This document shows positions 3,126-35,267 of a stretch of 64,000 nucleotides of DNA, piece after piece (position 1 is the stretch's first letter; each line of letters opens with the position of its first letter). The position numbers and the translations under genes were made by a program. This DNA is from Bdellovibrionota bacterium (GTDB taxonomy: Bacteria; Bdellovibrionota_C; UBA2361; OMII01): NCBI GenBank assembly GCA_044356215.1, contig JBIKWQ010000005.1, forward strand, positions 1,699 through 65,698, read 5' to 3'. The notes beneath the pieces are model-generated. The model searched no databases. It worked only from the letters and a program-made list of their open reading frames with translations, and had not been told where the DNA came from.

Positions 3126-4394
3126 CTACTGACCTGCTTTACCCCGCTGCCTCAACCAAGCTAACCGCTCTCCAATGACCTTCTCGGCTCCTCGCTCGCT
3201 CGGCTCATACATGGCGGGAACTCGCACCTCATCTGGCAAATAGCGGACCCCAGAGGCATAACCGTTATCCTCATCGTGAGGATAACGATAACCAGCACCG
3301 TAACCCACTGCTTTCATCAGCGAGGTCTCAGCGTTTCTTAAATGCAGAGGCACAACGGCACTCGGGTATCTATTCACCGCCTCTATCGCGCGGTGCATCG
3401 CCACATAGCTCCGATTAGATTTCGGTGCCGTAGCGAGGTAGGTGATACACTGAGCTATAGGAATTCGTCCTTCCGGCAAACCAACTAGATCAAAAGCCTG
3501 AAGTGTTGATACCGCTAACTGTAAAGCTCGCGGGTCGGCATTGCCGATATCCTCACTAGCAAAGATAACCATGCGCCTAATTAAAAAACGTGGGTCCTCT
3601 CCGCCGTTGAGCATACGGAATCCGTAATACAGGGCGGCATCGGCGTCTGAGCCACGCAAACTCTTGATGAAAGCCGAGGCAATATTGTAGTGCTCTTCTC
3701 CATCTCGGTCATACACCGCTGTATGGGCTTTCTTGAGAAACTCAAGCACCTGTTCTTCCGAGACGCTGGCGAGCTGCGCCCCCGATCCGCGAAAGGCCTC
3801 AAGAAATGACTCAAGCGAATTAAGAAGGCGCCTTCCATCACCCCCACTTGCCCTAATCAAAGCGAGCCTCGCCGCTTCAGGAAGATCTATCTGATAGTGC
3901 GCTTCTCCACGACCTAGCACACCGAGCAAAGCCTCATCACTTAGTGGCGAAAGCACTACCACTCGACAACGCGAAAGCAAAGCGCCCGTTAGATAAAACG
4001 ATGGATTTTCAGTCGTAGCTCCGATTAGCGCTATAATTCCAGACTCAACATGCGGCAGAAACGCGTCCTGCTGCGCCTTATTGAAGCGGTGGATCTCATC
4101 GACGAACAAAAGTGTCGGCCGAGGTAAGTCTTTGGCTTTCTCGACAACCTCGCGAACATCCTTTACACCCGATAGAACCGCGGATAGCTCCACAAATTCG
4201 CAATCAAAAGCTGAGCCGATCAACTTAGCTAATGTCGTCTTTCCGGATCCTGGTGGCCCCCAAAGAATTAGGGAGGGCAACCTTCCGGACCCTGATTTAA
4301 GCTGCTTTATGAGATGCGGATCAATCGCGTTAAGACCACACAGGTCATCGATCGTCTTGGGGCGCAGTAGCTCCGCTAGAGGGACCTGACTCAT
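3126..4394 (-). CDS. rarA: Replication-associated recombination protein A (RarA/MgsA AAA+ ATPase)
   Basis: LRPKTIDD, WGPPGSGKTT, LFVDEIHRFNKAQQDAFLP, GATTENP, SAFIKSLRGSDADAA, ASEDIGNADP, VPLHLRNA. Confidence 0.96.
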   Translation of the reverse strand: MSQVPLAELLRPKTIDDLCGLNAIDPHLIKQLKSGSGRLPSLILWGPPGSGKTTLAKLIGSAFDCEFVELSAVLSGVKDVREVVEKAKDLPRPTLLFVDEIHRFNKAQQDAFLPHVESGIIALIGATTENPSFYLTGALLSRCRVVVLSPLSDEALLGVLGRGEAHYQIDLPEAARLALIRASGGDGRRLLNSLESFLEAFRGSGAQLASVSEEQVLEFLKKAHTAVYDRDGEEHYNIASAFIKSLRGSDADAALYYGFRMLNGGEDPRFLIRRMVIFASEDIGNADPRALQLAVSTLQAFDLVGLPEGRIPIAQCITYLATAPKSNRSYVAMHRAIEAVNRYPSAVVPLHLRNAETSLMKAVGYGAGYRYPHDEDNGYASGVRYLPDEVRVPAMYEPSERGAEKVIGERLAWLRQRGKAGQ

Positions 4395-5746
4395 AACTCA
4401 GATAGAAACCAGCACACGTACCGATATCCCTCCTCGAACTGCCTAAGGGAGAACGACTCGTTAGGCGAGTGGATATTGTCCTGATCAAGACCGAAACCTA
4501 CCAAGAGTGGCTCTGTTCCTGAAGCTTTAGCGAGCTTAGGAATAATTGGGATGCTGGCTCCATTCCAAATATATACCGGCTTTACCCCGAATCCTTTCTC
4601 TATCGCTCGCTCAGCTACCTTGAGAATCTCTGAATCAACTGACAAGCGTAGCGCTGGTCCACCCACTGAGAGGTCACCAACCTCAACTCTAGTCCCTTCT
4701 GGCGCGACACTCTGGAGATATGAGGCAACTTTATCGAGGGTCTTTTGCGGATCCTGTCCCGCCACCAGTCGCATTGATAACTTGGCTATGCCGTAAGATG
4801 GAATAACGGTTTTGCCACCTGCTCCTTGATATCCTCCACCGATCCCGTTGATCTCAAGCGTAGGTCTAAGGCCCCTTCGTACAAGAGGTTCAAAGCGCGA
4901 CTCTCCTCCGGAGAGCGGCACTCCAAGAAAATCACTCATATGCTTTAGATCTATCGGTGCCGCCGTGACCATATCGATCTCCTGCGCGCTTGGCTCACTA
5001 GATCCATCATAGAATCCGGGCACCGCCACGGATCCATCGTCTTTATGAAGTGATGCTACGATCTTTACCAGCGCCTGAAGTGGATTGCGAACAACTCCAC
5101 CGTACATGCCGGAATGAATATCCATCTTTGGACCATAGACTCGAAGCTCGCAGTGGGCGATACCTCGTAGCCCCATCGTGATCGCTGGCCTTCCCGGCTC
5201 AAGCATATCGGTATCACAAACCATCATGATGTCCGCTTTCAGTTGATCACTCCAGTTAGTGACTTCCGAGTGCAAAGCCTCGCTTCCACTCTCCTCCTCT
5301 CCCTCGATCAAAATCTTTATCGTCGGAAGCTCGATGCCTGAAGCAATCAATGCCTCTATCGCCTTAAAAAAGAAGAACACCTGCCCCTTATTATCCTCAG
5401 CTCCTCGAGCATACATGCGTTCCTCACGGATAGTCCCCTTGAATGGGTCACTCTTCCAGAGGTCAAGCGGATCTACGGGCTGAACATCGTAATGCCCATA
5501 GAACAGAACAGTTGGTTTGCTTGGATCACCTTTGCGCTCAGCGAACACAACCGGGAGGAATTCAGATCTCCAGAGACTCGCCGTAAATCCCAATTTAGAT
5601 AGATGCGACCGCACCCAATCCGCACATGCTTCACAGTCGCTCGTATACGAGGGGTCCGCGCTTATACTTTTAAACGATAGGAACTCCTTCCACTCGGATA
5701 CAAATCGGTCTTGATGCTCTAAAAAATATCGCTGTATTTCCGTCAT
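4391..5746 (-). CDS. M20 family dipeptidase (Dug1/CNDP-like)
   Basis: YGHYDVQP, ARGAEDNKGQ, EGEEESGS, DIHSG, GASIP, NIHSPNE. Start placed at 5746 (AAAAGGGA upstream); stop overlaps the rarA start. Confidence 0.92.
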   Translation of the reverse strand: MTEIQRYFLEHQDRFVSEWKEFLSFKSISADPSYTSDCEACADWVRSHLSKLGFTASLWRSEFLPVVFAERKGDPSKPTVLFYGHYDVQPVDPLDLWKSDPFKGTIREERMYARGAEDNKGQVFFFFKAIEALIASGIELPTIKILIEGEEESGSEALHSEVTNWSDQLKADIMMVCDTDMLEPGRPAITMGLRGIAHCELRVYGPKMDIHSGMYGGVVRNPLQALVKIVASLHKDDGSVAVPGFYDGSSEPSAQEIDMVTAAPIDLKHMSDFLGVPLSGGESRFEPLVRRGLRPTLEINGIGGGYQGAGGKTVIPSYGIAKLSMRLVAGQDPQKTLDKVASYLQSVAPEGTRVEVGDLSVGGPALRLSVDSEILKVAERAIEKGFGVKPVYIWNGASIPIIPKLAKASGTEPLLVGFGLDQDNIHSPNESFSLRQFEEGYRYVCWFLSEL

Positions 5747-5762
5747 AGCGTCCCTTTTAATC

Positions 5763-5941
5763 ATCCTAAAAAGAGCAGTTAAGGAGGATGAAAATGGTGC
5801 AGATGCTCAAAAGCACGCGGGATTTTTGAATTTTTCGGAGCGCAACCCTGGCACCGTCAGGGTGAGCACCGAAAATTCAAAAGCCAAAGTGATTTTGAGC
5901 AGATGCGCCGTTTTCAGACCCGCAACTGCTCTTTTTAGGAT
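5763..5941 (+). repeat. 179-bp imperfect palindromic dispersed element, copy 1
   Basis: 18-bp perfect terminal inverted repeat (ATCCTAAAAAGAGCAGTT / AACTGCTCTTTTTAGGAT); nested inner stems; core nearly identical to the reverse complement of 35032-35210. Confidence 0.92.
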
Positions 5942-6081
5942 CGTTATTACGACATCATGCCACCAAATACGCGATTTTAAAAACAGATAACTACTCACCA
6001 CCCCCAGACATTTATGCCGTTGCGCTCTGCTGACATGAGTGCGATTATTCCACGGTAAAGTTTTAATATAAAATAAGAATT

Positions 6082-6633
6082 ATGAAGACGATCAAAGCAC
6101 TACTATTAACGTCTCTTATAGCCGTATCGGCGACCAATCTCTCAGGTTGCTCATGGTTTAGCTCAGGCAGTGGTGAATCCGAGGATGGCGCGCTATCAGA
6201 GTCAGATCTTGCCGCTCAACGTGAGGGCCGATTTGGGGCTGGAAATATCCCAACCGCCGAGGGCAACGGGATGTTTAGAGATATTCACTTCGGTTTTGAC
6301 TCATACGCAATCGATGGCGCCTCTAGAAACGATCTCGAGGCTAATGCTCGTGTTCTAACCGAGAAGAGTGACCTACGTGTGGTTATCGAGGGACACTGCG
6401 ACGAGCGAGGAACCGCAGAATACAACATGGCCCTGGGCGCTGAGCGTGCACGCGCGGTCAAGTCCGCTTTGGTGGCGCTTGGGATCGGGTCATCGCGGAT
6501 CGATACGATCAGTTACGGAGAGGAGATCCCGCTAGACCCTAGCGGAAGCGAAGAAGCTCACGCCAAGAATCGTCGCGCTCACTTCGCCGCCGGCGGTAAT
6601 AAGGGCGCTGCTAGTAAAGAATCGCGTTATTAA
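6082..6633 (+). CDS. pal: Peptidoglycan-associated lipoprotein (Pal/OmpA_C)
   Basis: Lipobox LSGC; IHFGFDS, VVIEGHCDERGTAEYNMALGAERARAV, TISYGEEIP, KNRRA. Confidence 0.92.
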   Translation: MKTIKALLLTSLIAVSATNLSGCSWFSSGSGESEDGALSESDLAAQREGRFGAGNIPTAEGNGMFRDIHFGFDSYAIDGASRNDLEANARVLTEKSDLRVVIEGHCDERGTAEYNMALGAERARAVKSALVALGIGSSRIDTISYGEEIPLDPSGSEEAHAKNRRAHFAAGGNKGAASKESRY

Positions 6634-17935: not shown

Positions 17936-20900
17936 GTGACGATCCAACTACAACCAGTAATCAGTCGGGCGAAGGGCCTCTTACGCTCTCTACGTGGGAC
18001 AAATAGCGCGGATCGAAGCTTTGTGGAGGCCGGACAGACCTGGCAGCCAGAGGTTCTTTCACGAGAGGGATTAGAAACGCTCGCGATACAGTTGGCGGAT
18101 CTACACCGAAACGCTATCGGTCAATTTCACTCAACTCGCCTCCTACGAGATTACAGAGCTAATCGAGCTACCCTTAAGCGCGTTTACCTACGTCTAGCCG
18201 AAGCGGCGCATAACGGCGAAGCCCTGACTGCGGGAGCGGAGTGGCTACTGGATAACTACCACCTAGTTGAGCGGCACGCCGCGCAGATCAAGAAGTACCT
18301 TCCGCGCAGCTTCTACCGCATCCTTCCCAAACTGACTCGAGGAGACTCAAAGGGACTCCCAAGGATATTTCATCTGGCGATGCAGTGTGTCTTACACACC
18401 GACGGCAGCATCAACGCCGAACGCACTTCGGGCTTTATCGCGGCATATCAAACCAAGTTAGAACTCTCTTCGGGTGAGCTCTGGGCTTTCCCGATCATGC
18501 TTCGCTTAGCTTTACTTGAGAACCTACGTCATTTGACAGTTGAAGCGGAACGCGAACTACTGGCGCGCCGCGAGGTCTTCTCGTTAGTAGACCAAGTCCT
18601 AGGTGATGAATCACGCGCTGGAACGGAGATAATGGTCGAGCTGGCGCGCCGGATTAACGAACGCGAGAACTTCTTACTTCACGGTGCACTTGAACTTCTT
18701 AAGCGACTAAGAAGCCGCGGCAAAAAGGCCTACATGGCGTTGCAGTTCTTAGAAGAGAAGCTAAGAGAGAGGGGCTTAGATCCTGAGGAGCTGCTCCGAG
18801 CCGAAGATCACCGACAAGCCACTAGACAGATCTCAGTCGGCAACACACTAACTTCCTTGAACGCCGTAGATCAGATGAATTGGCGCGATTGGTTCGAGTC
18901 TGTCAGCTTGTCAGATGCCGCTCTTCGTAAGGATCCGGCGGGAATCTACTCGCGCAACGACTTCATGACTCGAGATGTCCTGCGACAAGAGGTTGAGAAG
19001 TTAGCTAAGATTCTTAAGAAGACGGATTCTCAAGTCGCCTCTGCCGTGATTGATTGCGCCCGTGAGTCGGCGACCAACTGGCCAGGCGTCGATGATCGGT
19101 CCAAAGTACAAAGGTATGTTGGCAACTTCCTCTTCGGTGATGGCCGCGCTGCCTTGGAGAGCAAGCTCGACTTCAAACCATCTCTGAAGAGACGCTTTCA
19201 ACGTTTTCTCTTCAAGAATTCTCTAGCTACTTATCTGGGCTCAATCTTCGTTCTGTCGTTGATATTTGGCGGATACGTGTGCCTAATCTCAGAGTGGGTA
19301 GAGGCTCCTAAAATGGCGGTCGTAGGGGCGTTAGTATTGTCACTTCTGCCGATGACGGAACTGGCATCGAGCTTAGTTCAATATCTCGTTTCTCGTTGGG
19401 TAAGACCTAGGCCGCTGCCAAAGCTAGAAAGCGATGGTCCGGTCGCGGGCGAATCAAAAACCCTTGTTATTGTTCATACGATTTTTAGCTCGACGGGATC
19501 GATTCAGCGGGCGATCGACGGCCTAGAGGTCAGATTTCTCGGAAACGACGATCCGGCTTTTACCTTTGTCTTGATGGCGGATCTACCCGATGCGCAAAGC
19601 GAGCACGCGCCTCAAGATGAGGAGATAATTAACGCCGCCAAGGAGGGGATCGAGACTCTAAACAGACGTCATGCGCGCGGCGACTCTCCCCGCTTCCTTC
19701 TATTTTTCCGCTCGAGGCAATGGAATCCAAGCGAGGGTGTGTGGATGGCTTGGGAGCGAAAGCGCGGCAAGATTGAGGAGCTTAATCGCCGGCTACATGG
19801 CGATCTAAACACATCCCTTAAGCTTATTGTTGGAGAACCGGAGCAGCTTGAGGGAGTTCGTTACGTCATCACGCTTGACAGCGACTCTCAACTAGCTCGC
19901 GATGTGGGTAAAAAGCTTGTAGCCACGATCTCACACCCGATGAATCGCCCAGTCATCGATCCGAAAGTAAATCGAGTTACTAGCGGCTATGCATTTATAC
20001 AGCCGCGGGTAACGATCTCCCTGACCTCGGCGACCAGCTCATTTTTCTCACAGCTCTTCTCTGGACAGGCAGGTTTAGATCCTTACACAAATGTCGTCTC
20101 TGAAGTCTATCAAGATCTCTTTGGTGAGGGATCTTTCTGGGGAAAGGGAGTTTATGACGTGCAAGCCTTTGAGCATGTTCTGCGCGATCGTGTGCCTGAG
20201 AACGCGCTACTGAGTCACGATCTCTTTGAAGGATCCTTCGCGCGTGTCGCCCTCGCGTCTGATATAGAGCTCTACGACGATTTCCCATCTAGATATATGG
20301 CGTACTCGAAACGGCTACATCGGTGGGTACGCGGCGACTGGCAGCTCCTACCGTGGCTTTTTCCACGCGTGCCGACCAAGGGTGGTAAACAGAGGAGTCA
20401 GATCTCGTGGCTCTCGTGGTGGAAGATGTTTGACAACCTCAGACGTAGCCTCGTCCCTCCAGCCTGCTTGGCCGCTTTAATGGCCGGATGGATCTTCCTG
20501 CCAGGGGGTCCGCTCACCTGGACAGCGATAGTTTTAATAGTTATCGCCTTCCCCGTCTTTACGGGCCTGGCGGCGGTTTTCGCACTTCCAAGTGTTGGTA
20601 TATCAATCGGCGGACTCCTAGGTGATATCGGCCGAGATCTTTGGCGCAATACCGTACGCTCTTTTATGGGAATCGCGTTTCTGCCTCACCAGGCCGCGTT
20701 GATGATTCACGCGATAGCGGTGACTCTGCGACGCGTCTGTTGGGAGCACAAGCACCTATTAGAGTGGGAACCAGCTGAGAGAGCAGAGAGACGCTCAAAG
20801 AATGAGCGCGGTGAATACCTTAAACTTTTCATCCCAGCGATGCTGGTAGTGTTCGCGGCTCTTATCCTCACCGCTTACGTTAAGCCCGCTAGTCTTTTAT

Positions 20901-23900
20901 ACGCTCTACCCGTGGTTGGTCTCTGGCTTCTATCTCCAATGATAGCCGATGCCGCGTCTAGGTCGGCGAAGATTACCACCTTTACAGCGACCCCTTCCGA
21001 GTCGAGGTATTTAAGACGCCTGGCGCGTGATACGTGGCTCTTCTTCCGAGAATACCTCAGACCTGAGTACAACTACCTGATGCCTGATAATCTGCAGATA
21101 GTTCCAAACAGGGTCGTTGCTGAGAGAACCAGCCCGACTAACATCTCACTTTCGATGCTCAGTGTTCAGACAGCCTATGATCTCGGATTTTTGCCGTGGC
21201 ACACCGCTGTCGATAAGATCTCTCTGATTACTTCGACGATCAGATCTCTGGATAAATATAGGGGCCACCTCTTTAATTGGTATTCTATCAGGGACCTGGC
21301 GCCTTTAAACCCGCGCTACATATCTACGGTTGATAGCGGCAACTTGCTCGGGCACCTATACACCCTTCTCTCTATCTTTGATCACTTCGAGAATTTTGGA
21401 GTAGTTAAATCCACTCACTTCGAGAGCGTGAAGCAAAGCATTGAGGATCTCCTCTCAATTAAGGATCTGACACCGCCGGGAGAGTATCGAGCGAGACTGG
21501 TATCCTTCAAAGACCAGATGGCGGCGCATCCAACCTCTGATATCGCTACTCAGCTCTCGATCGTTACTAGCCAACCAGCGCTTGAATTAGTTGCCTCACT
21601 GAATTCCGCCGCTGAAATAGATCAGAAGCACGCGTCCGAATTTCGCGCTTTAGCGGCTCTGATGACAGACATCAGTGACGCCAGCGAATTGCTTGGATGG
21701 TTTAATCCGGTGCGGGAGTTAGCCGCGGCCGCTAGGACTGTTCAGCTAAGTCACGATACCTCATCTGAGCCACTTCAACGTCTCCTAGTTCTCAGCGTTG
21801 AGACTTTAAAGAATATCCAGGGGGCCACTCCGTCGATTAGCTTTATCGACACGACTACAGATAGGCTGTTAAGCGCCTTAAAAGAAGTTCAATTAGAGAG
21901 CGTCGGAGACGTGCTTCGTCCGATCGTCTTTGATCTTACTAACCGCGTCAACGCTGCAAGGACGTTAATAACGACTCTTAGGGATACAGCGAGAGCTACT
22001 GTTGAAAGTCTCAAGCAGATAATTGCCGACATGGATTTTTCATTCCTCTATGATGGGGAGAGAGATCTATTCACGATCGGTTACAACGCGGAACACGCTA
22101 GAAAAGATCAGAGCTTCTACGATCTTCTCGCTTCTGAGGCGCGCCTGCTAAGCTTTCTGGCTGTAGCCCGCGGCGAGGTCCCACAGAAGCACTGGTTCTC
22201 TCTTGGCCGATCCCTAGCGAACACTCCAGGAGGCAAAGCTTTGATCTCGTGGAGCGGTACCATGTTTGAGTACCTGATGCCATTTATTGTCATGAAGGAC
22301 TTCCCTACTACTATCCTAGGAAGGACTGGACGGGCTGTAGTTAACGCGCAGATTCACTACGGCGCGCGTCAATCAGCTCCTTGGGGAATCTCCGAATCCG
22401 CCTATAGCGGCGTCGACTTTGAGAAGACTTATCAGTATCGCGCCTTTGGTGTCCCTGGGCTTGGACTAAAGCGGGGACTCTCGGAGGACCTGGTTGTATC
22501 GCCGTACTCTACCATGTTGGCGTTGGGATTCGCTCCGTCACTTGAGAGCGCTATCCGCAACTTAAAGCACCTCGAAGATGAGGGGGCGCGAGGTGAATTC
22601 GGCTTCTATGAGGCGGTCGACTATACAACCACGAGACACATTCGCTCAGAGGGTAAGCACATAGTGCAGTCATTCTTCGCTCACCACCAGGGGATGTCTC
22701 TAGTCAGTATTAACAACATCCTCAACAACGATATCATGCGTGAACGTTTTCATGCGCAGCCGGTGGTTAAAGCGGCTGAATTACTTCTGCACGAGAGGTT
22801 CCCAGATCGCGTAGCAGCGATCGTACCTCATGAGCCTGAGTTGGCGATGATACACCGCGAAGAGGAGGAATTTGAGGCTCCAGGCTTAGAGGTGATCACC
22901 TCCCCGCACTCATTAGCTCCTCGTGTTAGACTTCTCTCAAATGGTAAATACTCAGTCCTTGTCGACTCCGCCGGTGGTGGATTCAGCTCATTTGACAAGT
23001 CGCTTCTGCTCACTCGTTGGCGTGAGGATCCCACAACATCGCCTTACGGAACATTCATATACATTCACGATGCCACACGTAAGGAGACATGGTCAGCCGC
23101 TTATCAACCTACTAGAGTTAACGCTGACTCGTATGAGGCGATCTTTAGCCCAGGCAGGGCTGAATTTAAGCGCTTCGACGATAAGATATTCACTCACACT
23201 GAGATAACCGTTGCCCCTGAGGACGATGTTGAGCTTAGGCGCGTAACCATCACAAACCTAAGTGATGTGGAGCGTGAGTTAGATATTGTAAGTTATGCCG
23301 AGCCGGTATTGAATTCACAACGAGCCGACAACGCCCATCCAGCGTTTAACAAGCTTTTTGTGCGGGCGGAGCCCGTACCGGATTTCGACGCGATTATTTG
23401 CGCGAGAAGACCAAGGAGTGATCACGAACAGGAGCTCTTCTTTTTTCATCGGGTAACTCTCCGCACTAGCTACGCGCCGATCAGATTTTATACATCTCGC
23501 GCCAGTTTTATAGGTCGCCATGGGTCTCTGGCTAAACCGACGATATTTGAGGGAAGCGGTTCGGCCGTCCAACCGCTTGATGGCAATGTCGATCCCCTCG
23601 CCGCGCTGGGATGCACAGTGCGTCTTGAACCTGGAGCAAGCGAGACACTTGTGTTTATCTCCGGAGCGACCCGCTCTCGCGACAACGCTGAGATCCTGAT
23701 CGAACGTTACCAGGACCTGATGCATGTCAACCGAGCGTTTGAGCTTTCCTGGAGTCGCGCTCAGGTCGAGCTACGTAATCACGCTTACTCAGCGGCCCAA
23801 GCGGACCTATTTCATAGACTCGCCGGCTGCTTGATTTATAACGAGGAGAACGTTCGAGCGACTCAGCAGACTTTGCAAACTAACCGCTTAACTCAGTCGT

Positions 23901-26791
23901 CGCTGTGGCGGTTCGGAATCTCAGGCGACCTTCCGATACTGTTAGTTAAGATCTCTGACTCTCGTCAAGCCAAGATTCTGCAAGAGCTACTTCTGGGCCA
24001 TCACTTCCTGCGTGAACGTGGCCTCGAGTTTGACCTGGTAGTGCTTCACAAGAACCAGGGTAGCTACATGCAGCACCTGGCTGAGGACATAGAATACACG
24101 GTTAGGTTAAGTCCGGCTGGCGCTCTGTTAGACAAGCGCGGGGGTGTTTTCCTCCGCTCCAGCAGTCAGATCTCTGAGTCGGAGATAACCCTTCTCGAGA
24201 CGGTTTCGAGAGTCGTACTTGATTGCGACCTGGGGGATCTACGAGAACTTCTAGCCAAGGCCTCTTTTGAGCAGGTCACATCCCCACTAACTATCAAACC
24301 TTTTACACGCTCTCAACGCAGACCTAGAGGATCACAGACTCTGGTTAAGGCTAATAAAATGGGCGGTTTCGTTCCGAGCTCCAACCACTACCTGCTTCCT
24401 CAGGTTGGAGATAATCGTCCTCCTCTTCCATGGTCTAATATCATTGCTAATCCTCATTTTGGGTTCCTCGTAACTGAATCGGGAGCCGGATATACTTGGT
24501 CTGAAAATAGCCGGGAAAACAGACTTACTACTTGGTCAAACGATCCAATCCTTGATCCAGTGAGTGAGGTGGTATTTATTCGGCGCGCCGAGAGTGGAGA
24601 CTACTGGTCCCTCACCCCCTCCCCCTCCGGCTCCGGGCTCGATTACTCGGTCGAGCATGGGTTTGGCTACTCTACATTTACAGCTAACAATTCAGGCATC
24701 GACTCAGCGTTAACCTTATCGGGTTCGAATAAGGAGCGCGTCAAATGGCTCTCTGTGACACTTTCTAACGCGGAGTCTCAGGAGCAAAGGCTTGAACTAG
24801 TACTTTATTGTGAACCCGTTCTAGGAGTGACACGTGATGACTCTTATCGTTTTATAACGTCATCCTTTGATTTAACCGCTCAATCGCTCTGCTTACAGAA
24901 CTACTACAACAACGAGTTCGCTGGTCGCGTAATGGCGGTAGGCGCTAGTGAGCCGATCGTTAGCTACACAGCTTCACGCCTTGAGTTCGTAGGTAAGAAC
25001 GGTGATATCTCCGCTCCTGACGCGCTTAACCGCGGAGGATCCACCGCTTTCCTATCCTCAAAGACCCGCGGGATTAAGCTCTCAACCAAGACAGGGGCTG
25101 GCTTCGATCACTGCGCCGCTCTGCAGGTATCTATCACGCTGAAGCCTAAGGAGGAGAAGAATGTCGTCTTCTTTATCTCCGAGCACAGCTCGATGGACGC
25201 CATGCGTCGAGAAGCTCCCAAATACAGAGGTCTACAAACTCAACGGGTCGAACTTCAAGGGGTGCAACTATTCTGGCGCGAACTACTATCGACGATAGAG
25301 GTTCAGACTCCGAGTGACTCATTCAATCTGATGATGAATGGCTGGTTGCTGTACCAGACCGTAGCGTGCCGACTATTTGGTCGTTCGGCTTTCTACCAGA
25401 GCGGTGGCGCGTTAGGCTTCCGTGACCAGCTACAGGATTCCTTAGCTCTGCTAAACATCAGACCAGATATGGTTAGGCAGCAGATTATCCTCCACGCTGC
25501 GAGACAGTTTAAGGAGGGCGATGTTCAGCACTGGTGGCATCCCCCGACCGGTAGAGGAGTAAGGACTCGCATATCAGACGACCTGTTATGGTTACCTTAC
25601 GCTGTCGCCAGATACATCGAAGTGACCGGGGATTATTCAATCCTCGCCGAGCAGGTGCCTTTTTTACAGGGAGCCGCTCTCGCTGATGGCCAGATGGAGA
25701 ACTATTTCATACCCGAAAGGAGCTCTGAGGAGGGTTCTATTTTAGAGCACTGTCTGAGAACTTTTAGAGGCACCGAAGCCGTGGGGAGTCACGGACTGCC
25801 TCTGATCGGCGCGGGCGATTGGAACGACGGAATGAATGAGATAGGCCGCCACGGTAAGGGCGAAAGCGTATGGCTGGCCTGGTTCCAATGCGAGGTAATT
25901 AAACGATTCGCGCCTATCCTGGAGGCTCAGGGAGAACAGGAGAACGCAGACGCCCTAAGACAGAGAGCGGGTGCCCTCGCGGCGGCCGCCGAAAGGGAGG
26001 CGTGGGACGGAGCCTGGTATCGTCGGGCCTTCTACGACGATGGAACACCTGTAGGGAGCAAGGACAACGACGAGTGCAAGATCGACTCACTATGCCAATC
26101 CTGGGCCATTATTAGCGGCTCCTCGGATAAGGAGCGGGCACGCCAAGCGATGGAATCAGCGCTACGAGAGTTAGTAGATCACGACGGTCATTTGATCAAA
26201 TTGTTAACCCCCCCATTTAACAAAACCGAGAAGAATCCCGGCTACATCAAGGGCTATCCGCCTGGAGTACGCGAGAACGGAGGACAATACACCCATGCGG
26301 CAGCGTGGTTAATTATCGCGTCAGCTCTCCAGGGGGCTGGTGACACCGCCTTTAATCTTCTAGATCTGATTAATCCAATTAACGCTACTTTGGACGCGAA
26401 GGGACTAGAGACCTATAGAGCTGAGCCATATGTTATGTGTGGCGATGTCTACTCTGAGCCGCCCCTTAGAGGCCGCGCTGGCTGGAGCTGGTACACGGGC
26501 TCATCTGGTTGGCTATATCAGGCCGGCATAGAGAATATTATGGGGCTAAAAGTTCATCCGCTTCATATAACGATCAATCCGTGTGTGCCATCGAGCTGGG
26601 ATCACTCAGTGGTACGTTACCGTCGAGGTGAAAGATTATTCGTATTTGAGCTGATTAATCCATCGGGCGCTCAGCAAGGTGTTTCTCGGATTGAGGTAAA
26701 TGGAACCGAGATACCTGACAAAAAGATCCAGTTAGAGGATCCCTCTTATAGAGGCACTGTAAATGTGAAGGTATTTATAGGACGCGATTAA
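17936..26791 (+). CDS. cgs: Cyclic beta-1,2-glucan synthase (GT84 plus GH94 phosphorylase modules; Cgs/NdvB/ChvB)
   Basis: 2951 aa; AGAEWLLDNY, WERKRGKIEE, ITLDSD, LLSHDLFEG, RLHRWVRGDWQ, YDLLASEAR, SWSGTMFEY, YQSGGALGFRDQLQD, QHWWHPP, GDWNDGM, GRAGWSWYTGS. Confidence 0.96.
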   Translation: MTIQLQPVISRAKGLLRSLRGTNSADRSFVEAGQTWQPEVLSREGLETLAIQLADLHRNAIGQFHSTRLLRDYRANRATLKRVYLRLAEAAHNGEALTAGAEWLLDNYHLVERHAAQIKKYLPRSFYRILPKLTRGDSKGLPRIFHLAMQCVLHTDGSINAERTSGFIAAYQTKLELSSGELWAFPIMLRLALLENLRHLTVEAERELLARREVFSLVDQVLGDESRAGTEIMVELARRINERENFLLHGALELLKRLRSRGKKAYMALQFLEEKLRERGLDPEELLRAEDHRQATRQISVGNTLTSLNAVDQMNWRDWFESVSLSDAALRKDPAGIYSRNDFMTRDVLRQEVEKLAKILKKTDSQVASAVIDCARESATNWPGVDDRSKVQRYVGNFLFGDGRAALESKLDFKPSLKRRFQRFLFKNSLATYLGSIFVLSLIFGGYVCLISEWVEAPKMAVVGALVLSLLPMTELASSLVQYLVSRWVRPRPLPKLESDGPVAGESKTLVIVHTIFSSTGSIQRAIDGLEVRFLGNDDPAFTFVLMADLPDAQSEHAPQDEEIINAAKEGIETLNRRHARGDSPRFLLFFRSRQWNPSEGVWMAWERKRGKIEELNRRLHGDLNTSLKLIVGEPEQLEGVRYVITLDSDSQLARDVGKKLVATISHPMNRPVIDPKVNRVTSGYAFIQPRVTISLTSATSSFFSQLFSGQAGLDPYTNVVSEVYQDLFGEGSFWGKGVYDVQAFEHVLRDRVPENALLSHDLFEGSFARVALASDIELYDDFPSRYMAYSKRLHRWVRGDWQLLPWLFPRVPTKGGKQRSQISWLSWWKMFDNLRRSLVPPACLAALMAGWIFLPGGPLTWTAIVLIVIAFPVFTGLAAVFALPSVGISIGGLLGDIGRDLWRNTVRSFMGIAFLPHQAALMIHAIAVTLRRVCWEHKHLLEWEPAERAERRSKNERGEYLKLFIPAMLVVFAALILTAYVKPASLLYALPVVGLWLLSPMIADAASRSAKITTFTATPSESRYLRRLARDTWLFFREYLRPEYNYLMPDNLQIVPNRVVAERTSPTNISLSMLSVQTAYDLGFLPWHTAVDKISLITSTIRSLDKYRGHLFNWYSIRDLAPLNPRYISTVDSGNLLGHLYTLLSIFDHFENFGVVKSTHFESVKQSIEDLLSIKDLTPPGEYRARLVSFKDQMAAHPTSDIATQLSIVTSQPALELVASLNSAAEIDQKHASEFRALAALMTDISDASELLGWFNPVRELAAAARTVQLSHDTSSEPLQRLLVLSVETLKNIQGATPSISFIDTTTDRLLSALKEVQLESVGDVLRPIVFDLTNRVNAARTLITTLRDTARATVESLKQIIADMDFSFLYDGERDLFTIGYNAEHARKDQSFYDLLASEARLLSFLAVARGEVPQKHWFSLGRSLANTPGGKALISWSGTMFEYLMPFIVMKDFPTTILGRTGRAVVNAQIHYGARQSAPWGISESAYSGVDFEKTYQYRAFGVPGLGLKRGLSEDLVVSPYSTMLALGFAPSLESAIRNLKHLEDEGARGEFGFYEAVDYTTTRHIRSEGKHIVQSFFAHHQGMSLVSINNILNNDIMRERFHAQPVVKAAELLLHERFPDRVAAIVPHEPELAMIHREEEEFEAPGLEVITSPHSLAPRVRLLSNGKYSVLVDSAGGGFSSFDKSLLLTRWREDPTTSPYGTFIYIHDATRKETWSAAYQPTRVNADSYEAIFSPGRAEFKRFDDKIFTHTEITVAPEDDVELRRVTITNLSDVERELDIVSYAEPVLNSQRADNAHPAFNKLFVRAEPVPDFDAIICARRPRSDHEQELFFFHRVTLRTSYAPIRFYTSRASFIGRHGSLAKPTIFEGSGSAVQPLDGNVDPLAALGCTVRLEPGASETLVFISGATRSRDNAEILIERYQDLMHVNRAFELSWSRAQVELRNHAYSAAQADLFHRLAGCLIYNEENVRATQQTLQTNRLTQSSLWRFGISGDLPILLVKISDSRQAKILQELLLGHHFLRERGLEFDLVVLHKNQGSYMQHLAEDIEYTVRLSPAGALLDKRGGVFLRSSSQISESEITLLETVSRVVLDCDLGDLRELLAKASFEQVTSPLTIKPFTRSQRRPRGSQTLVKANKMGGFVPSSNHYLLPQVGDNRPPLPWSNIIANPHFGFLVTESGAGYTWSENSRENRLTTWSNDPILDPVSEVVFIRRAESGDYWSLTPSPSGSGLDYSVEHGFGYSTFTANNSGIDSALTLSGSNKERVKWLSVTLSNAESQEQRLELVLYCEPVLGVTRDDSYRFITSSFDLTAQSLCLQNYYNNEFAGRVMAVGASEPIVSYTASRLEFVGKNGDISAPDALNRGGSTAFLSSKTRGIKLSTKTGAGFDHCAALQVSITLKPKEEKNVVFFISEHSSMDAMRREAPKYRGLQTQRVELQGVQLFWRELLSTIEVQTPSDSFNLMMNGWLLYQTVACRLFGRSAFYQSGGALGFRDQLQDSLALLNIRPDMVRQQIILHAARQFKEGDVQHWWHPPTGRGVRTRISDDLLWLPYAVARYIEVTGDYSILAEQVPFLQGAALADGQMENYFIPERSSEEGSILEHCLRTFRGTEAVGSHGLPLIGAGDWNDGMNEIGRHGKGESVWLAWFQCEVIKRFAPILEAQGEQENADALRQRAGALAAAAEREAWDGAWYRRAFYDDGTPVGSKDNDECKIDSLCQSWAIISGSSDKERARQAMESALRELVDHDGHLIKLLTPPFNKTEKNPGYIKGYPPGVRENGGQYTHAAAWLIIASALQGAGDTAFNLLDLINPINATLDAKGLETYRAEPYVMCGDVYSEPPLRGRAGWSWYTGSSGWLYQAGIENIMGLKVHPLHITINPCVPSSWDHSVVRYRRGERLFVFELINPSGAQQGVSRIEVNGTEIPDKKIQLEDPSYRGTVNVKVFIGRD

Positions 26792-34160: not shown

Positions 34161-35096
34161 ATGAAGAGTAACCGTTTAATAGCCCTGGCTTTAATTCTTC
34201 TGCCGATCCTAAGCGCATCCGCCTCTCCCAACTTACCCACCTTTGACCAGCGCTCATTTCTCTTTTCCTGGCCCGGGCAAGACGCTCGCGAGAGTATGAT
34301 AGATCCGCGTGAGCCTATCGTTACAGACCGTCCAAGCTTTACGGATTCCAGTAGGACTGTTGGCAAGGGAGTGACCCAGTTTGAGCTAGGCTACATCTAT
34401 TCATATTCAGACAGTAGCAATTCAGATCCAAGGTTCTCGGCTACACACTCGTATCCGGACCTATCACTACGTCAGGGGGTGTTCGCTAATTGGCTAGAGC
34501 TACGAGTGGCCGGCACAATTTCCAGTTTTACTCGGTCGGGTGACAACTATACCGGCATAAACGACCCACTATTAGGATTTCGTTTAGGGCTCTTTGCTCA
34601 GCATGGGTTCCTTCCAGAGCTATCTATTACGCCCAGGACATCGCTACCGATAGGGTCACCCTCTGTAAGGAGTGATAAGGCTTTACCAGCGATCGGGGCA
34701 TCTTACTCATGGAGCATAACTGATTCTCTATCCTTATCAGGTGCAACAAATTTTTCTACGCTGGAGCGACATAGCGATGGTGATAGCTATCGCTCTTGGG
34801 GACAGACGGCGATGATCTCCGTGAAGTCGACAGCGCAGACCTCTCTCTGGATCGAAGCCTACGCGGCTCTTCCTCAGCATTCCAGCGGGGAGCTAGATAC
34901 TTATTACGGGGACGCCGGAGCGCTCTATCTGATTAGCGATAACACCCAGCTAGATCTGCGCATGGGGAGTAAGCTACAGGATCGCTTTGGGCAGGATATC
35001 TTCGCGGCTGTTGGAGTATCGGTTAGGTATAATCCTAAATTCGGCAGTTGCGGGTCTGAAAATGGCGCATCTACCCAAAATCACCGCGTCTTTTGA
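34161..35096 (+). CDS. Putative outer-membrane beta-barrel (MetA-pathway-of-phenol-degradation/'transporter' family)
   Basis: Signal peptide, TDRPSFTDS...VGKG..QFELGY, alternating beta-strand pattern; last ~21 codons come from the palindromic element. Confidence 0.8.
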   Translation: MKSNRLIALALILLPILSASASPNLPTFDQRSFLFSWPGQDARESMIDPREPIVTDRPSFTDSSRTVGKGVTQFELGYIYSYSDSSNSDPRFSATHSYPDLSLRQGVFANWLELRVAGTISSFTRSGDNYTGINDPLLGFRLGLFAQHGFLPELSITPRTSLPIGSPSVRSDKALPAIGASYSWSITDSLSLSGATNFSTLERHSDGDSYRSWGQTAMISVKSTAQTSLWIEAYAALPQHSSGELDTYYGDAGALYLISDNTQLDLRMGSKLQDRFGQDIFAAVGVSVRYNPKFGSCGSENGASTQNHRVF

Positions 35097-35210
35097 ATTG
35101 TCGGTGCTCACCCTGACGGTGCCAGGGTTGCGCCGCCGACAAATTCAAAATACTTTGTGCTTTTGAGTACCTGCGCTATTTTCATCCTCCTTAACTGCCG
35201 AATCTAGGAT
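35032..35210 (-). repeat. 179-bp imperfect palindromic dispersed element, copy 2 (inverted relative to copy 1)
   Basis: Terminal arms ATCCTAAATTCGGCAGTT / AACTGCCGAATCTAGGAT (17/18); central core is the reverse complement of GCGCAACCCTGGCACCGTCAGGGTGAGCACCGA in copy 1. Confidence 0.92.
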
Positions 35211-35267
35211 AATTGACCTTCAGCCCTTACATGGTGCCAATATGGCAGAGCAGCAAAAGCTCACTAG

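What the first reader, a model, noticed from the sequence alone, without database searches (positions are those of the whole stretch)
5763..5941. 179-bp rod-like palindromic element in two copies, with compensatory base changes
5763-5941 and the reverse complement of 35032-35210 are both 179 bp, share a near-identical core, and each folds into one long hairpin around the loop GCACCGT. Several differences preserve pairing. The outer stem is AAAAGA/TCTTTT in copy 1 but GATTCG/CGAATT in copy 2. TGCTC/GAGCA becomes TACTC/GGGTA. A U-A pair in GAATTTTTCGG/CCGAAAATTC becomes G-C (GAATTTGTCGG/CCGACAATTC). U.G wobbles become U-A or C-G. That points to selection on an RNA or ssDNA structure rather than a plain duplication. 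No transposase is in the window. The architecture resembles non-autonomous palindromic repeats (REPIN, ERIC/IRU, Rickettsia palindromic elements), but I do not recognise the family. It could be an undescribed MITE-like element or a structured ncRNA.
Basis: partly seen in the sequence, partly recalled or inferred. Interest (0 to 1): 0.8.

Follow-up and report, generated by a model that had tools for sequence, protein, structure and literature searches.

The report
Miniature transposon with IS1380-type ends
The two palindromic repeats are copies of a small mobile DNA element without its own transposase, abundant in Bdellovibrionota genomes and carrying the end sequences of an IS1380-like insertion-sequence clade; it is a new family of an ordinary kind, not a structured RNA gene.

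Summary
Each copy is a 175-bp element (window 5765-5939 on +, 35034-35208 on -) with 16-bp terminal inverted repeats (CCTA-NNNNNN-GCAGTT) and a 5-bp target-site duplication. It is a high-copy MITE: about 260 places, roughly 120 of them full length, in 690 kb from at least 8 Bdellovibrionota MAGs. Insertions sit at W-T-N-A-W sites. Copy 2 is polymorphic between near-identical strains, with a clean empty site. Nested insertions and paralogous empty sites also occur. The termini and the 5-bp duplication match the IS1380 family. I found IS1380-like insertion sequences with the same 16-bp ends (16/16 in one), but in other hosts, not in Bdellovibrionota. Compensatory changes are real across 103 copies. 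However, rare mutations are strand-neutral (G:U 49, A:C 49), orientation relative to genes is unbiased, no ORF is conserved, and Rfam has no match. The structure is therefore kept in proliferating lineages and is not a host RNA function. Verdict: a new member of a known kind, of modest interest.

The parts
5765..5939 (+). MITE copy 1, 175-bp body (86% identical to the family consensus)
   Evidence: Present in all strain contigs that reach this site (L116, L117, L123); several contigs break inside it.
5760..5764 (.). Left copy of the 5-bp target-site duplication of copy 1 (ATCAT)
   Evidence: Matches the right copy at 4 of 5 positions and fits the W-T-N-A-W target.
5940..5944 (.). Right copy of the target-site duplication of copy 1 (ATCGT)
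5765..5780 (+). Left terminal inverted repeat of copy 1, CCTAAAAAGAGCAGTT (AAAAGA variant of the variable block)
5924..5939 (+). Right terminal inverted repeat of copy 1, AACTGCTCTTTTTAGG
5846..5862 (+). Apical stem-loop CCCTG-GCACCGT-CAGGG, the most conserved part of the family
   Evidence: helix 6: 97.7% of cells paired, no covariation.
35034..35208 (-). MITE copy 2, 175-bp body (89% identical to the consensus), a recent insertion that is polymorphic between strains
35209..35213 (-). Target-site duplication of copy 2, 5' side in element orientation (ATTAT)
   Evidence: The empty alleles L124 and L128 carry a single ATTAT.
35029..35033 (-). Target-site duplication of copy 2, 3' side in element orientation (ATTAT)
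35034..35096 (+). Last 20 codons plus the stop codon of the outer-membrane protein ORF 34161-35096, supplied by the MITE after it displaced the native stop codon
   Evidence: The empty allele ends ...VSVRYN*; the filled allele ends ...VSVRYNPKFGSCGSENGASTQNHRVF*. Pfam Phenol_MetA_deg on the orthologue.
4391..5764 (-). M20-family peptidase gene next to copy 1. The likely start codon is at 5746-5744, so the MITE plus its duplication begins 13-18 nt upstream of it
   Evidence: Pfam Peptidase_M20, M20_dimer; a 451-aa gene call in L117.
6082..6633 (+). OmpA-family (Pal-like) gene, divergent neighbour of copy 1

Best explanation
The two repeats are copies of a miniature inverted-repeat transposable element (MITE). 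It is a 175-bp non-coding DNA element whose only parts needed for movement are, most likely, its 16-bp terminal inverted repeats (CCTA + 6 variable nt + GCAGTT). A DDE transposase of an IS1380-like clade, encoded elsewhere, recognises these ends and inserts the element at 5-bp A/T-rich sites (W-T-N-A-W), which become duplicated. Shown: the termini, the 5-bp duplication, the target preference, high copy number in several Bdellovibrionota species, a strain-level filled/empty polymorphism at window copy 2, nested insertions, and IS1380-like insertion sequences with the same 16-bp ends and the same duplication length. Inferred: that such a transposase acts in trans in these hosts, since none was found in Bdellovibrionota DNA. 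Also inferred: that the rod-like hairpin is a property of the element's long inverted arms, kept in the lineages that keep transposing, by selection on transposition competence and/or arm-to-arm templated repair, and not an RNA function serving the host. Individual copies decay neutrally after insertion. Local side effects in the window: copy 2 removed the stop codon of an outer-membrane protein gene and added 20 codons; copy 1 lies between a divergent gene pair, just upstream of the peptidase start codon.
For: Duplication: identical in 45 and one mismatch in 31 of 116 copies, against 0 in the shifted control; positions 2 and 4 are T and A in 45 and 44 of 45. Empty site: L124 and L128 read GGTCAATTAT|ACCTAACC, while the window and L125 carry ATTAT + 175 bp + ATTAT. 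Nested copy: removing L039:3638-3812 plus one duplication restores an intact element, 93.8% over 144 nt; paralogous empty sites match at 93-95% over 145/145 nt. Location: 98 of 116 copies are intergenic although 81% of the DNA is in ORFs. IS1380 link, family level: ISEcp1 ends CCTAGATTCTACGT / CCTAAATTCCACGT with 5-bp direct repeats (PMC6061673); IS1247-like and Ligilactobacillus members also start CCYRNATT; metagenomic family members show perfect 5-bp duplications. IS1380 link, same termini: a 1638-bp IS in L218 with ends CCTAAAAACGGCAGTT...AACTGCCGGATTTAGG and duplication CTAAT/CTAAT, encoding a 514-aa protein that hits Pfam DDE_Tnp_1_4 at 86.8 bits (cutoff 34.7) and has NCBIfam IS1380 transposase as its best match. 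Found independently by protein homology: L242 has a left end identical 16/16 to the MITE consensus, a TTTAT flank, and the contig ends inside a matching right end; L243 has CCTAAAAACGGCAGTT at both ends. A second, unrelated 133-bp hairpin element shares only these termini and has a TTTAT/TTTAT duplication. Against host RNA function: orientation is unbiased at 45/51 and 52/51; rare G:U 49 versus A:C 49; the small ORF is not conserved; no promoter-like or terminator-like site lies inside either copy; Rfam gives nothing even at E <= 1.
Against: No transposase of this clade was found in the window, in 690 kb of MITE-bearing Bdellovibrionota loci, or among named clade members, which are Verrucomicrobiota/Spartobacteria. 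The ISs with matching ends sit in DNA of different composition: 60% GC for L218, and a 39% GC flank for L242, against 50-51% here. The MITE interior is not derived from the ends of those ISs beyond 16-18 nt. The clade's transposases score below NCBIfam's curated IS1380 cutoff (139-153 bits against 180; reference members score 330-390), so 'IS1380-like' is safer than 'IS1380'. Covariation along all 69 pairs, far beyond the 16-bp ends, and the better folding of one strand in 97 of 103 copies are not needed by a simple end-recognition model and remain only partly explained.
Confidence: 0.82

Rival explanations
1. It is a MITE, but the long hairpin itself is mechanistically required for its mobility. 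A foldback or cruciform of one specific strand would bring the two 16-bp ends together, or be the form that is recognised, so the compensatory changes reflect direct selection on a single-stranded DNA structure during transposition.
For: Covariation exceeds both controls over the whole rod: 226 cells changed on both sides against 73 +/- 6 in shuffles and 30-57 in slid controls; 28 pairs have double changes. One strand folds about 10 kcal/mol better in 97 of 103 copies with RNA parameters and 100 of 103 with DNA parameters. High-frequency (>= 10 copies) G:U states occur at 10 pairs against A:C at 2. A divergent subfamily (L034, L035, L083) keeps pairing through multi-base changes. The unrelated 133-bp family with the same ends is also a hairpin.
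Against: The cognate-type ISs have only short terminal inverted repeats, and their ends are unrelated beyond 16-18 nt, so the transposase does not need a rod. The copies are related, and few independent events underlie the strand asymmetry. The outer block is unmatched in about 18% of copies. Short-patch templated repair between the arms would give the same pattern without selection.
Confidence: 0.12
2. It is a MITE mobilised by a transposase of a different family that also makes 5-bp duplications, and the resemblance to IS1380-type ends is coincidental.
For: No cognate transposase was found in Bdellovibrionota DNA. Other families also give 5-bp duplications (for example Tn3, from my own knowledge).
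Against: A 16/16 identity at the exact terminus of an IS found independently by protein homology and a 1638-bp IS with both ends and a 5-bp duplication cannot be chance (4^-16). Those ISs encode DDE_Tnp_1_4 proteins whose best NCBIfam match is IS1380.
Confidence: 0.04
3. It is a structured non-coding RNA or RNA-level regulatory module, such as a stabiliser, an RNase III target or an sRNA, maintained by the host. The dispersed copies would be paralogous RNA genes.
For: The hairpin is very stable, there is covariation, most copies are intergenic, and one strand folds better.
Against: The element has target-site duplications, empty sites and nested copies. There is no orientation bias relative to flanking genes. 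Rare G:U equals rare A:C. Rare wobble-creating versus mismatch-creating transitions are 58 versus 44, p = 0.20. No promoter or terminator signals lie inside either copy. No Rfam family matches. Individual copies are 73-98% identical to the consensus, so they are decaying.
Confidence: 0.03
4. It is a REP/REPIN-type element moved by a RAYT (HUH tyrosine transposase), or a relative of ERIC/IRU.
For: Only the general look: a palindromic, intergenic, multi-copy element.
Against: A 5-bp duplication and DDE-type terminal inverted repeats are present. There is no sequence match in 5,426 E. coli genomes, which carry REP/BIME and ERIC. The matching autonomous elements encode DDE transposases.
Confidence: 0.01

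Closest known systems
ISEcp1 and the IS1380 family of insertion sequences (DDE transposases, Pfam DDE_Tnp_1_4; prokaryotic counterpart of piggyBac according to PMC5718144)
   Same: The first 9 terminal bases are identical to the ISEcp1 right end (CCTAAATTC), and window copy 2's CCTAGATTC matches the ISEcp1 left end. The family-wide CC-Y-R-N-A-T-T start is shared. The target duplication is 5 bp and A/T-rich (PMC6061673). The family tolerates imperfect or alternative ends (PMC9330008), which fits the variable 6-nt block here.
   Different: The element is 175 bp, has no transposase gene and has a palindromic interior. Its closest autonomous relatives form a divergent clade of about 520-aa proteins, 25% identical to ISEcp1 and below NCBIfam's IS1380 cutoff.
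The 1.6-kb IS clade found here (L218:1180-2817; L242 from 1441; L243; L241), with named members from Verrucomicrobiota/Spartobacteria MAGs
   Same: The same 16-bp ends, CCTA-N6-GCAGTT (16/16 in L242, 14-15/16 in L218). The same 5-bp duplication (CTAAT/CTAAT) and the same kind of flank (TTTAT). The same set of variable-block variants (AAAACG, AATTCG).
   Different: These are autonomous, 1638 bp, and sit in hosts of other GC content. Their sequence beyond 16-18 nt is unrelated to the MITE arms, so the MITE is not a simple deletion derivative of them.
Bacterial MITEs in general (for example Correia/NEMIS of Neisseria and the MaeMITEs of Microcystis, PMC2779907; Correia from my own knowledge)
   Same: Size of 100-400 bp, terminal inverted repeats, fixed-length duplication, tens to hundreds of mainly intergenic copies, no coding capacity, occasional fusion to host ORFs.
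   Different: A different sequence, host phylum and transposase family. The papers I searched and read describe no IS1380-type MITE and no Bdellovibrionota MITE, but that search is not exhaustive.
REPINs / REP sequences and ERIC (IRU)
   Same: Intergenic palindromic repeats in which pairing is kept by compensatory change (this point from my own knowledge of the literature).
   Different: REPINs are moved by RAYT enzymes and make no target duplication. ERIC is an enterobacterial 127-bp sequence. Here a 5-bp duplication and DDE-type ends are present, and there is no sequence similarity.

Membership tests
MITE (miniature inverted-repeat transposable element) | Short (<600 bp) with no conserved coding capacity | tested here: met
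   175 bp. The SD+ATG small ORF is absent in 18 of 103 copies and its length is scattered. Central indels of 1-2 nt break the frame.
MITE (miniature inverted-repeat transposable element) | Terminal inverted repeats | tested here: met
   CCTAAATTCGGCAGTT ... AACTGCCGAATTTAGG. Positions 1-4 and 11-16 are at least 90% conserved in 103 copies.
MITE (miniature inverted-repeat transposable element) | Target-site duplication of fixed length | tested here: met
   5 bp: identical in 45 and one mismatch in 31 of 116 copies, against 0 in the shifted control. Confirmed by an empty site.
MITE (miniature inverted-repeat transposable element) | Many dispersed copies in a genome | tested here: met
Only 2 copies in this 64-kb window.
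MITE (miniature inverted-repeat transposable element) | Presence/absence polymorphism (filled and empty sites) | tested here: met
   Window copy 2: filled in the window and L125, empty in L124 and L128. A nested copy in L039 and paralogous empty sites.
MITE (miniature inverted-repeat transposable element) | An autonomous element with the same ends exists | tested here: met
   L218 has a 1638-bp IS with both ends and a 5-bp duplication. L242's left end matches 16/16. L243 has both ends.
MITE (miniature inverted-repeat transposable element) | The autonomous partner is present in the same host genomes | tested here: inconclusive
   Not found in the window, in 690 kb of MITE-bearing loci, or among named clade members. 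The MAGs are fragmented and whole genomes could not be scanned.
IS1380 family (as a non-autonomous derivative) | Family-typical termini | tested here: met
   CCTAAATTC equals the first 9 nt of the ISEcp1 right end. The CC-Y-R-N-A-T-T start is shared by ISEcp1, IS1247-like, Ligilactobacillus and metagenomic members.
IS1380 family (as a non-autonomous derivative) | 4-5-bp target duplication | tested here: met
   5 bp here. 5-bp direct repeats for ISEcp1 (PMC6061673). Perfect 5-bp duplications in L141, L182, L192, L201, L207. The range '4-5 bp' for the family is from my own knowledge.
IS1380 family (as a non-autonomous derivative) | The transposase of the ISs that carry the same ends belongs to the family | tested here: inconclusive
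   Pfam DDE_Tnp_1_4 is above its cutoff (86.8 and 70.9 bits against 34.7). NCBIfam transpos_IS1380 is the best hit with near full-length coverage but below its cutoff (153 and 139 bits against 180); reference members score 330-390. This is a divergent IS1380-like clade.
IS1380 family (as a non-autonomous derivative) | Mobilisation in trans by such a transposase | not testable with these tools
   Needs a transposition assay.
REP / REPIN (RAYT-mobilised) | No target-site duplication; a linked HUH (RAYT) transposase | tested here: not met
   A 5-bp duplication is present. The matching autonomous elements encode DDE transposases.
ERIC / IRU | Sequence similarity to the enterobacterial 127-bp consensus | tested here: not met
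   No blastn match (word size 11, E <= 1e-3) in 5,426 complete E. coli genomes.
Any curated Rfam RNA family | Match to a covariance model | tested here: not met
   0 hits at gathering score in the whole window. 0 hits at E <= 1 on either copy.
Rickettsia palindromic elements (RPE) | Rickettsia-specific sequence families that insert in frame into ORFs | not tested
   No RPE sequences were at hand. Here only 7 of 116 copies lie inside ORFs and 11 overlap an ORF end.

The most novel reading that the evidence does not exclude
The rod-like fold is not a by-product. IS1380-like transposases, the prokaryotic relatives of piggyBac, would mobilise these miniature elements through a strand-specific single-stranded or cruciform foldback, so that pairing along all 69 positions, and the tolerance of G:U on one strand only, are under direct selection for transposition.
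Probability: 0.12. Interest if true: 0.6.

Novelty: new member of a known kind. Interest (0 to 1): 0.3.

Why it matters
It names and delimits a repeat family that breaks assemblies of Bdellovibrionota MAGs: many copies lie at contig ends. The family also produces spurious small ORF calls and alters real genes, here by adding a 20-codon C-terminal extension to an outer-membrane protein in some strains only. It ties the family to a large, barely described IS1380-like transposase clade (more than 7,700 relatives) through a shared 16-bp end. That gives a concrete pair, transposase and miniature substrate, for studying end recognition in the prokaryotic relatives of piggyBac. It is also a cautionary case: strong covariation in a palindromic DNA repeat does not by itself indicate a functional RNA.

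Tried and rejected
- **Conserved peptide from the SD+ATG in the left arm:** rejected. The ORF is not conserved.
- **That ORF as a relic of the transposase N-terminus:** rejected. The real peptide scores no better than 30 of 30 shuffles.
- **MITE as an internal-deletion derivative of the L242 or L244 IS:** rejected for these ISs. Interior alignment scores of 15-23 fall within the shuffled range, maximum 25.
- **Transposase in the MITE-bearing loci:** the multi-copy ORFs are ABC-transporter ATPases. tblastn with the ISEcp1 transposase finds nothing. No IS-like unit was apparent among the many unpaired or contig-edge ends listed. The L066 solo end precedes an MBL-fold hydrolase, not a transposase.
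- **Metagenome scan with an IS1380 profile:** 80 family loci but no exact partner. The nearest end is CCTAAATCCTGCAATC at 12/16.
- **Promoter and terminator scans:** nothing inside the elements.
- **Strand-specific selection on individual copies:** not supported.
- **Orientation bias relative to genes:** none.
- **RNAalifold on the MAFFT alignment:** recovered only 29 pairs because of gaps in the centre. I used the consensus fold mapped onto the alignment columns instead.
- **Unconstrained inverted-repeat search in IS1380 loci:** overshoots the true ends because the target is partly palindromic, so duplications were read only from the CC-anchored search.

Full report
**Observation**

The two sequences are there and are not chance. 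A 33-nt core is identical at 5840-5872 (+) and 35101-35133 (-), with none expected in shuffles. The copies align over their whole length at 81-84% identity. Each folds into a single long hairpin around the loop GCACCGT, with -107.9 and -99.7 kcal/mol and z-scores of -14.3 and -13.0. The boundaries need a small correction. The element proper is 175 bp (5765-5939 on +; 35034-35208 on -). It begins CCTA and ends TAGG. It is flanked by a 5-bp direct repeat: ATCAT/ATCGT for copy 1 and ATTAT/ATTAT for copy 2.

**A high-copy dispersed family**

These came from at least eight metagenome-assembled genomes labelled Bdellovibrionota, Bdellovibrionales or, by some submitters, Pseudomonadota. In the 690 kb fetched, a profile of the two window copies finds 262 places. 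Of these, 115-125 are full length, and many of the rest are cut by contig ends, as expected of a repeat that breaks assemblies. Copies are 73-98% identical to the family consensus. The window copies are 86% and 89% identical to it, and their nearest relatives (89% and 93%) lie in another species' MAG. The window itself has only these two copies.

**Anatomy and mobility**

In 116 full-length copies the termini are CCTAAATTCGGCAGTT...AACTGCCGAATTTAGG. The five bases outside them are identical on both sides in 45 copies and differ at one base in 31. A control shifted 5 nt outward gives 0. The duplicated site has T at position 2 and A at position 4 in 45 and 44 of 45 perfect cases, with A or T preferred at positions 1 and 5, giving W-T-N-A-W.

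Window copy 2 has a direct empty site. Contigs L124 and L128 come from strains that encode an identical 142-aa neighbouring protein. They read GGTCAATTAT|ACCTAACC without interruption. The window and L125 carry ATTAT, the 175-bp element, and ATTAT again at exactly that point.

Other evidence of movement:
- In L039 one copy sits inside another. Removing it together with one copy of the duplication restores an intact element, 93.8% identical over 144 nt to L006.
- The copy at L098:3146-3321 lies inside a different repeat. Reconstructing its empty site gives 93-95% matches over all 145 nt in L059, L047, L001 and L049.
- 98 of 116 copies are intergenic, 11 overlap an ORF end and 7 lie inside an ORF, although 81% of the DNA is in called ORFs.

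These are the defining properties of a MITE.

**Which transposase**

The terminus recalled the inverted repeats of ISEcp1, so I tested that.
- An annotated plasmid and the literature give CCTAGATTCTACGT and, as the reverse complement of the right end, CCTAAATTCCACGT. The literature also reports 5-bp direct repeats (PMC6061673). The MITE consensus shares the first nine bases of the right end, and window copy 2's left end (CCTAGATTC) shares those of the left end.
- Two distant family members also start CC-Y-R-N-A-T-T: an IS1247-like element and a Ligilactobacillus element.
- Most of the credible inverted repeats among 80 IS1380-family loci from metagenomes start the same way. Several have perfect 5-bp duplications: TTCTA, CTAAA, CTTAG, ATGAT and TCTAG.

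Cheap scans of viral contigs with the 16-mer terminus and its variants then gave two decisive finds.
- L217 and L218 carry a 1638-bp unit bounded by CCTAAAAACGGCAGTT and AACTGCCGGATTTAGG. In L218 it is flanked by CTAAT on both sides. It encodes a 514-aa protein that passes Pfam's cutoff for DDE_Tnp_1_4. Its best NCBIfam match is the IS1380 transposase model, at 153 bits with near full-length coverage but below the 180-bit cutoff. It is 25% identical to the ISEcp1 transposase (E = 3e-14).
- L212 and L215 carry a 133-bp hairpin element with the same termini and a TTTAT/TTTAT duplication, but an unrelated interior.

A protein search from the 514-aa transposase found more than 7,700 relatives of about 520 aa. 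I fetched DNA for four of them.
- L242 has a left end identical to the MITE consensus at 16 of 16 positions, 61 nt before the start codon, with a TTTAT flank. The contig ends inside a matching right end (...GCAACTGCC).
- L243 has CCTAAAAACGGCAGTT at both ends.
- L241 has CCTAAAAAAAGCAGTT.

So an IS1380-like clade uses ends of the form CCTA + 6 variable bases + GCAGTT and makes 5-bp duplications, exactly as the MITE does.

Limits of this link:
- These ISs are in other hosts. L218 is 60% GC, L242's flank is 39% GC, and the MITE-bearing loci are 50% GC. The named clade members are from Verrucomicrobiota.
- None was found in Bdellovibrionota DNA.
- The MITE interior is not derived from their ends beyond 16-18 nt.

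**The hairpin and the compensatory changes**

Across 103 copies, 92.8% of cells in the 69-pair rod form standard pairs. 226 cells are changed on both sides, against 73 +/- 6 in column shuffles (0 of 500 reach the observed value) and 30-57 when partners are slid by 1-3 columns. 28 pairs show double changes.

1. It occurs as AATTCG, AAAACG or AAAAGA. The AAAACG variant is coupled between the two ends (Fisher 9e-6), largely because whole subfamilies carry it. The AAAAGA variant is not coupled (p = 0.30), and window copy 1 is the only copy in the set with AAAAGA matched on both arms. The L218 IS itself has AAAACG at one end and AATCCG at the other. Complementarity there is not required.
2. Individual copies show no strand-specific purifying selection. 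Among rare states G:U and A:C are equal, 49 each. Rare transitions in Watson-Crick pairs create wobbles 58 times and mismatches 44 times, p = 0.20.
3. Orientation relative to neighbouring genes is random: 45 sense and 51 antisense next to 3' ends, 52 and 51 next to 5' ends.
4. There is no conserved ORF, no promoter-like or terminator-like signal inside either window copy, and no Rfam match even at E <= 1.

What remains is a lineage-level signal. The consensus rod has 66 Watson-Crick pairs, 3 G:U and no A:C. G:U states have reached at least 10 copies at 10 pairs, against A:C at 2 pairs. The strand with AAGGAGG in its 5' arm folds about 10 kcal/mol better in 97 of 103 copies. Divergent subfamilies keep pairing through multi-base changes. 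I read this as maintenance of the palindrome in the lineages that keep proliferating. The cause could be selection for transposition competence, short-patch templated repair between the arms, or both. A direct mechanistic role for a foldback is not excluded, and I give it about 0.12.

**Local consequences in the window**

Copy 2 inserted at the last codons of an outer-membrane protein gene (34161-35096; Pfam Phenol_MetA_deg on the orthologue). The empty allele ends ...VSVRYN-stop. The filled allele reads on into the element for 20 more codons...RYNPKFGSCGSENGASTQNHRVF-stop. Whether the extended protein still works is unknown.

Copy 1 lies between a divergently transcribed M20 peptidase gene and an OmpA-family (Pal-like) gene. 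Its duplication overlaps the longest ORF's ATG at 5764, and the element ends 18 nt upstream of the more likely start at 5746. Its duplication has one mismatch, and it is present in every strain contig that reaches the site, so it is the older insertion.

**Comparison and novelty**

It works like any bacterial MITE. By its ends and duplication it belongs with the IS1380-like elements. It is not a REPIN, because a duplication and DDE-type ends are present. It is not ERIC, because there is no match in 5,426 E. coli genomes. It is not a curated RNA family. My searches of the paper library found no description of a Bdellovibrionota MITE or of an IS1380-derived MITE, but that search is not exhaustive. 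I file it as a new member of a known kind. The modest interest lies in the clean pairing of a miniature substrate with a large, little-studied transposase clade, and in the unusually strong but non-RNA covariation.

Noticed in passing
L212:1906-2038 (minus strand) and L215:5215-5347 (minus strand): A second miniature element of 133 bp with the same 16-bp termini (CCTAAATTCGGCAGTT...AACTGCCGGATTTAGG), a perfect TTTAT/TTTAT duplication and an unrelated interior that also folds as a hairpin (-58 kcal/mol). It occurs in two IMG/VR contigs.
   Followed up: partly
L066:2243-2266 (minus strand), upstream of ORF 1397-2242: A truncated left end of the element (CCTAAAAACGGCAGTTAAGGAGAG) lies between the stop codon of an upstream ORF and the ATG of what looks like an MBL-fold hydrolase gene (HxHxDH motif; no family scan was run). 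The element's AAGGAG is placed as that gene's ribosome-binding site.
   Followed up: partly
L098:3071-3145 and 3322-3396; L059:4822-4966; L047:14-158; L001:5871-6015; L049:104-248: A different multi-copy repeat in the CAZZLV01 MAG. The L098 copy of it is interrupted by the 175-bp element, and the others are uninterrupted at 93-95% identity. These MAGs hold several repeat families.
   Followed up: no
L009: about 3565-3640 and 3818-3850, with more than 25 similar stretches (for example L008:240-343, L089:4065-4169, L074:2888-2991): A third repeat family of about 104 nt or more, at 80-90% identity across many loci. One copy was hit by the 175-bp element.
   Followed up: no
L089:6341-6516, L073:5632-5808, L066:4325-4514: Chimeric copies whose two arms are both of the left type (AAGGAGG on both sides) or both of the right type. 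I saw no matching 5-bp flanks where I read them (L089, L073). They look like recombination products between copies rather than transposition products.
   Followed up: partly
L014:59-234 and 240-415; L005:3444-4008; L099:2788-2966 plus the next copy: Head-to-tail or back-to-back arrays of copies separated only by the 5-bp site. This suggests repeated insertion next to, or into the flank of, an existing copy.
   Followed up: no
window 5807-6001 (minus strand); L116:2726-2920; L123:121-315: A 64-aa ORF with no Pfam hit, called by gene predictors in public assemblies, lies largely inside MITE copy 1 and is very likely spurious.
   Followed up: partly
window 17936-26788 (+) and 57456-63875 (+): Two very long ORFs of about 2,950 and 2,140 aa. 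I left them out of the Pfam sweep and did not examine them.
   Followed up: no
window 6044-6072 (minus strand): The only sigma-70-like site near copy 1 (TTTATA-17-AATAAT with a TG) lies beyond the element relative to the peptidase gene. If it is used, the peptidase 5' UTR would contain the whole hairpin. The number of such sites is at chance level (1 found, 1.1 expected).
   Followed up: no
L218:1180-2817, L217:5953-7590, L242:1441-3144, L243:~203-1886, L241: A large clade of about 520-aa IS1380-like transposases, with more than 7,700 relatives at E <= 1e-20, mostly on 1.7-2.5-kb contigs. They score below NCBIfam's IS1380 cutoff and are mostly annotated as hypothetical proteins. Named members are from Verrucomicrobiota/Spartobacteria.
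   Followed up: partly
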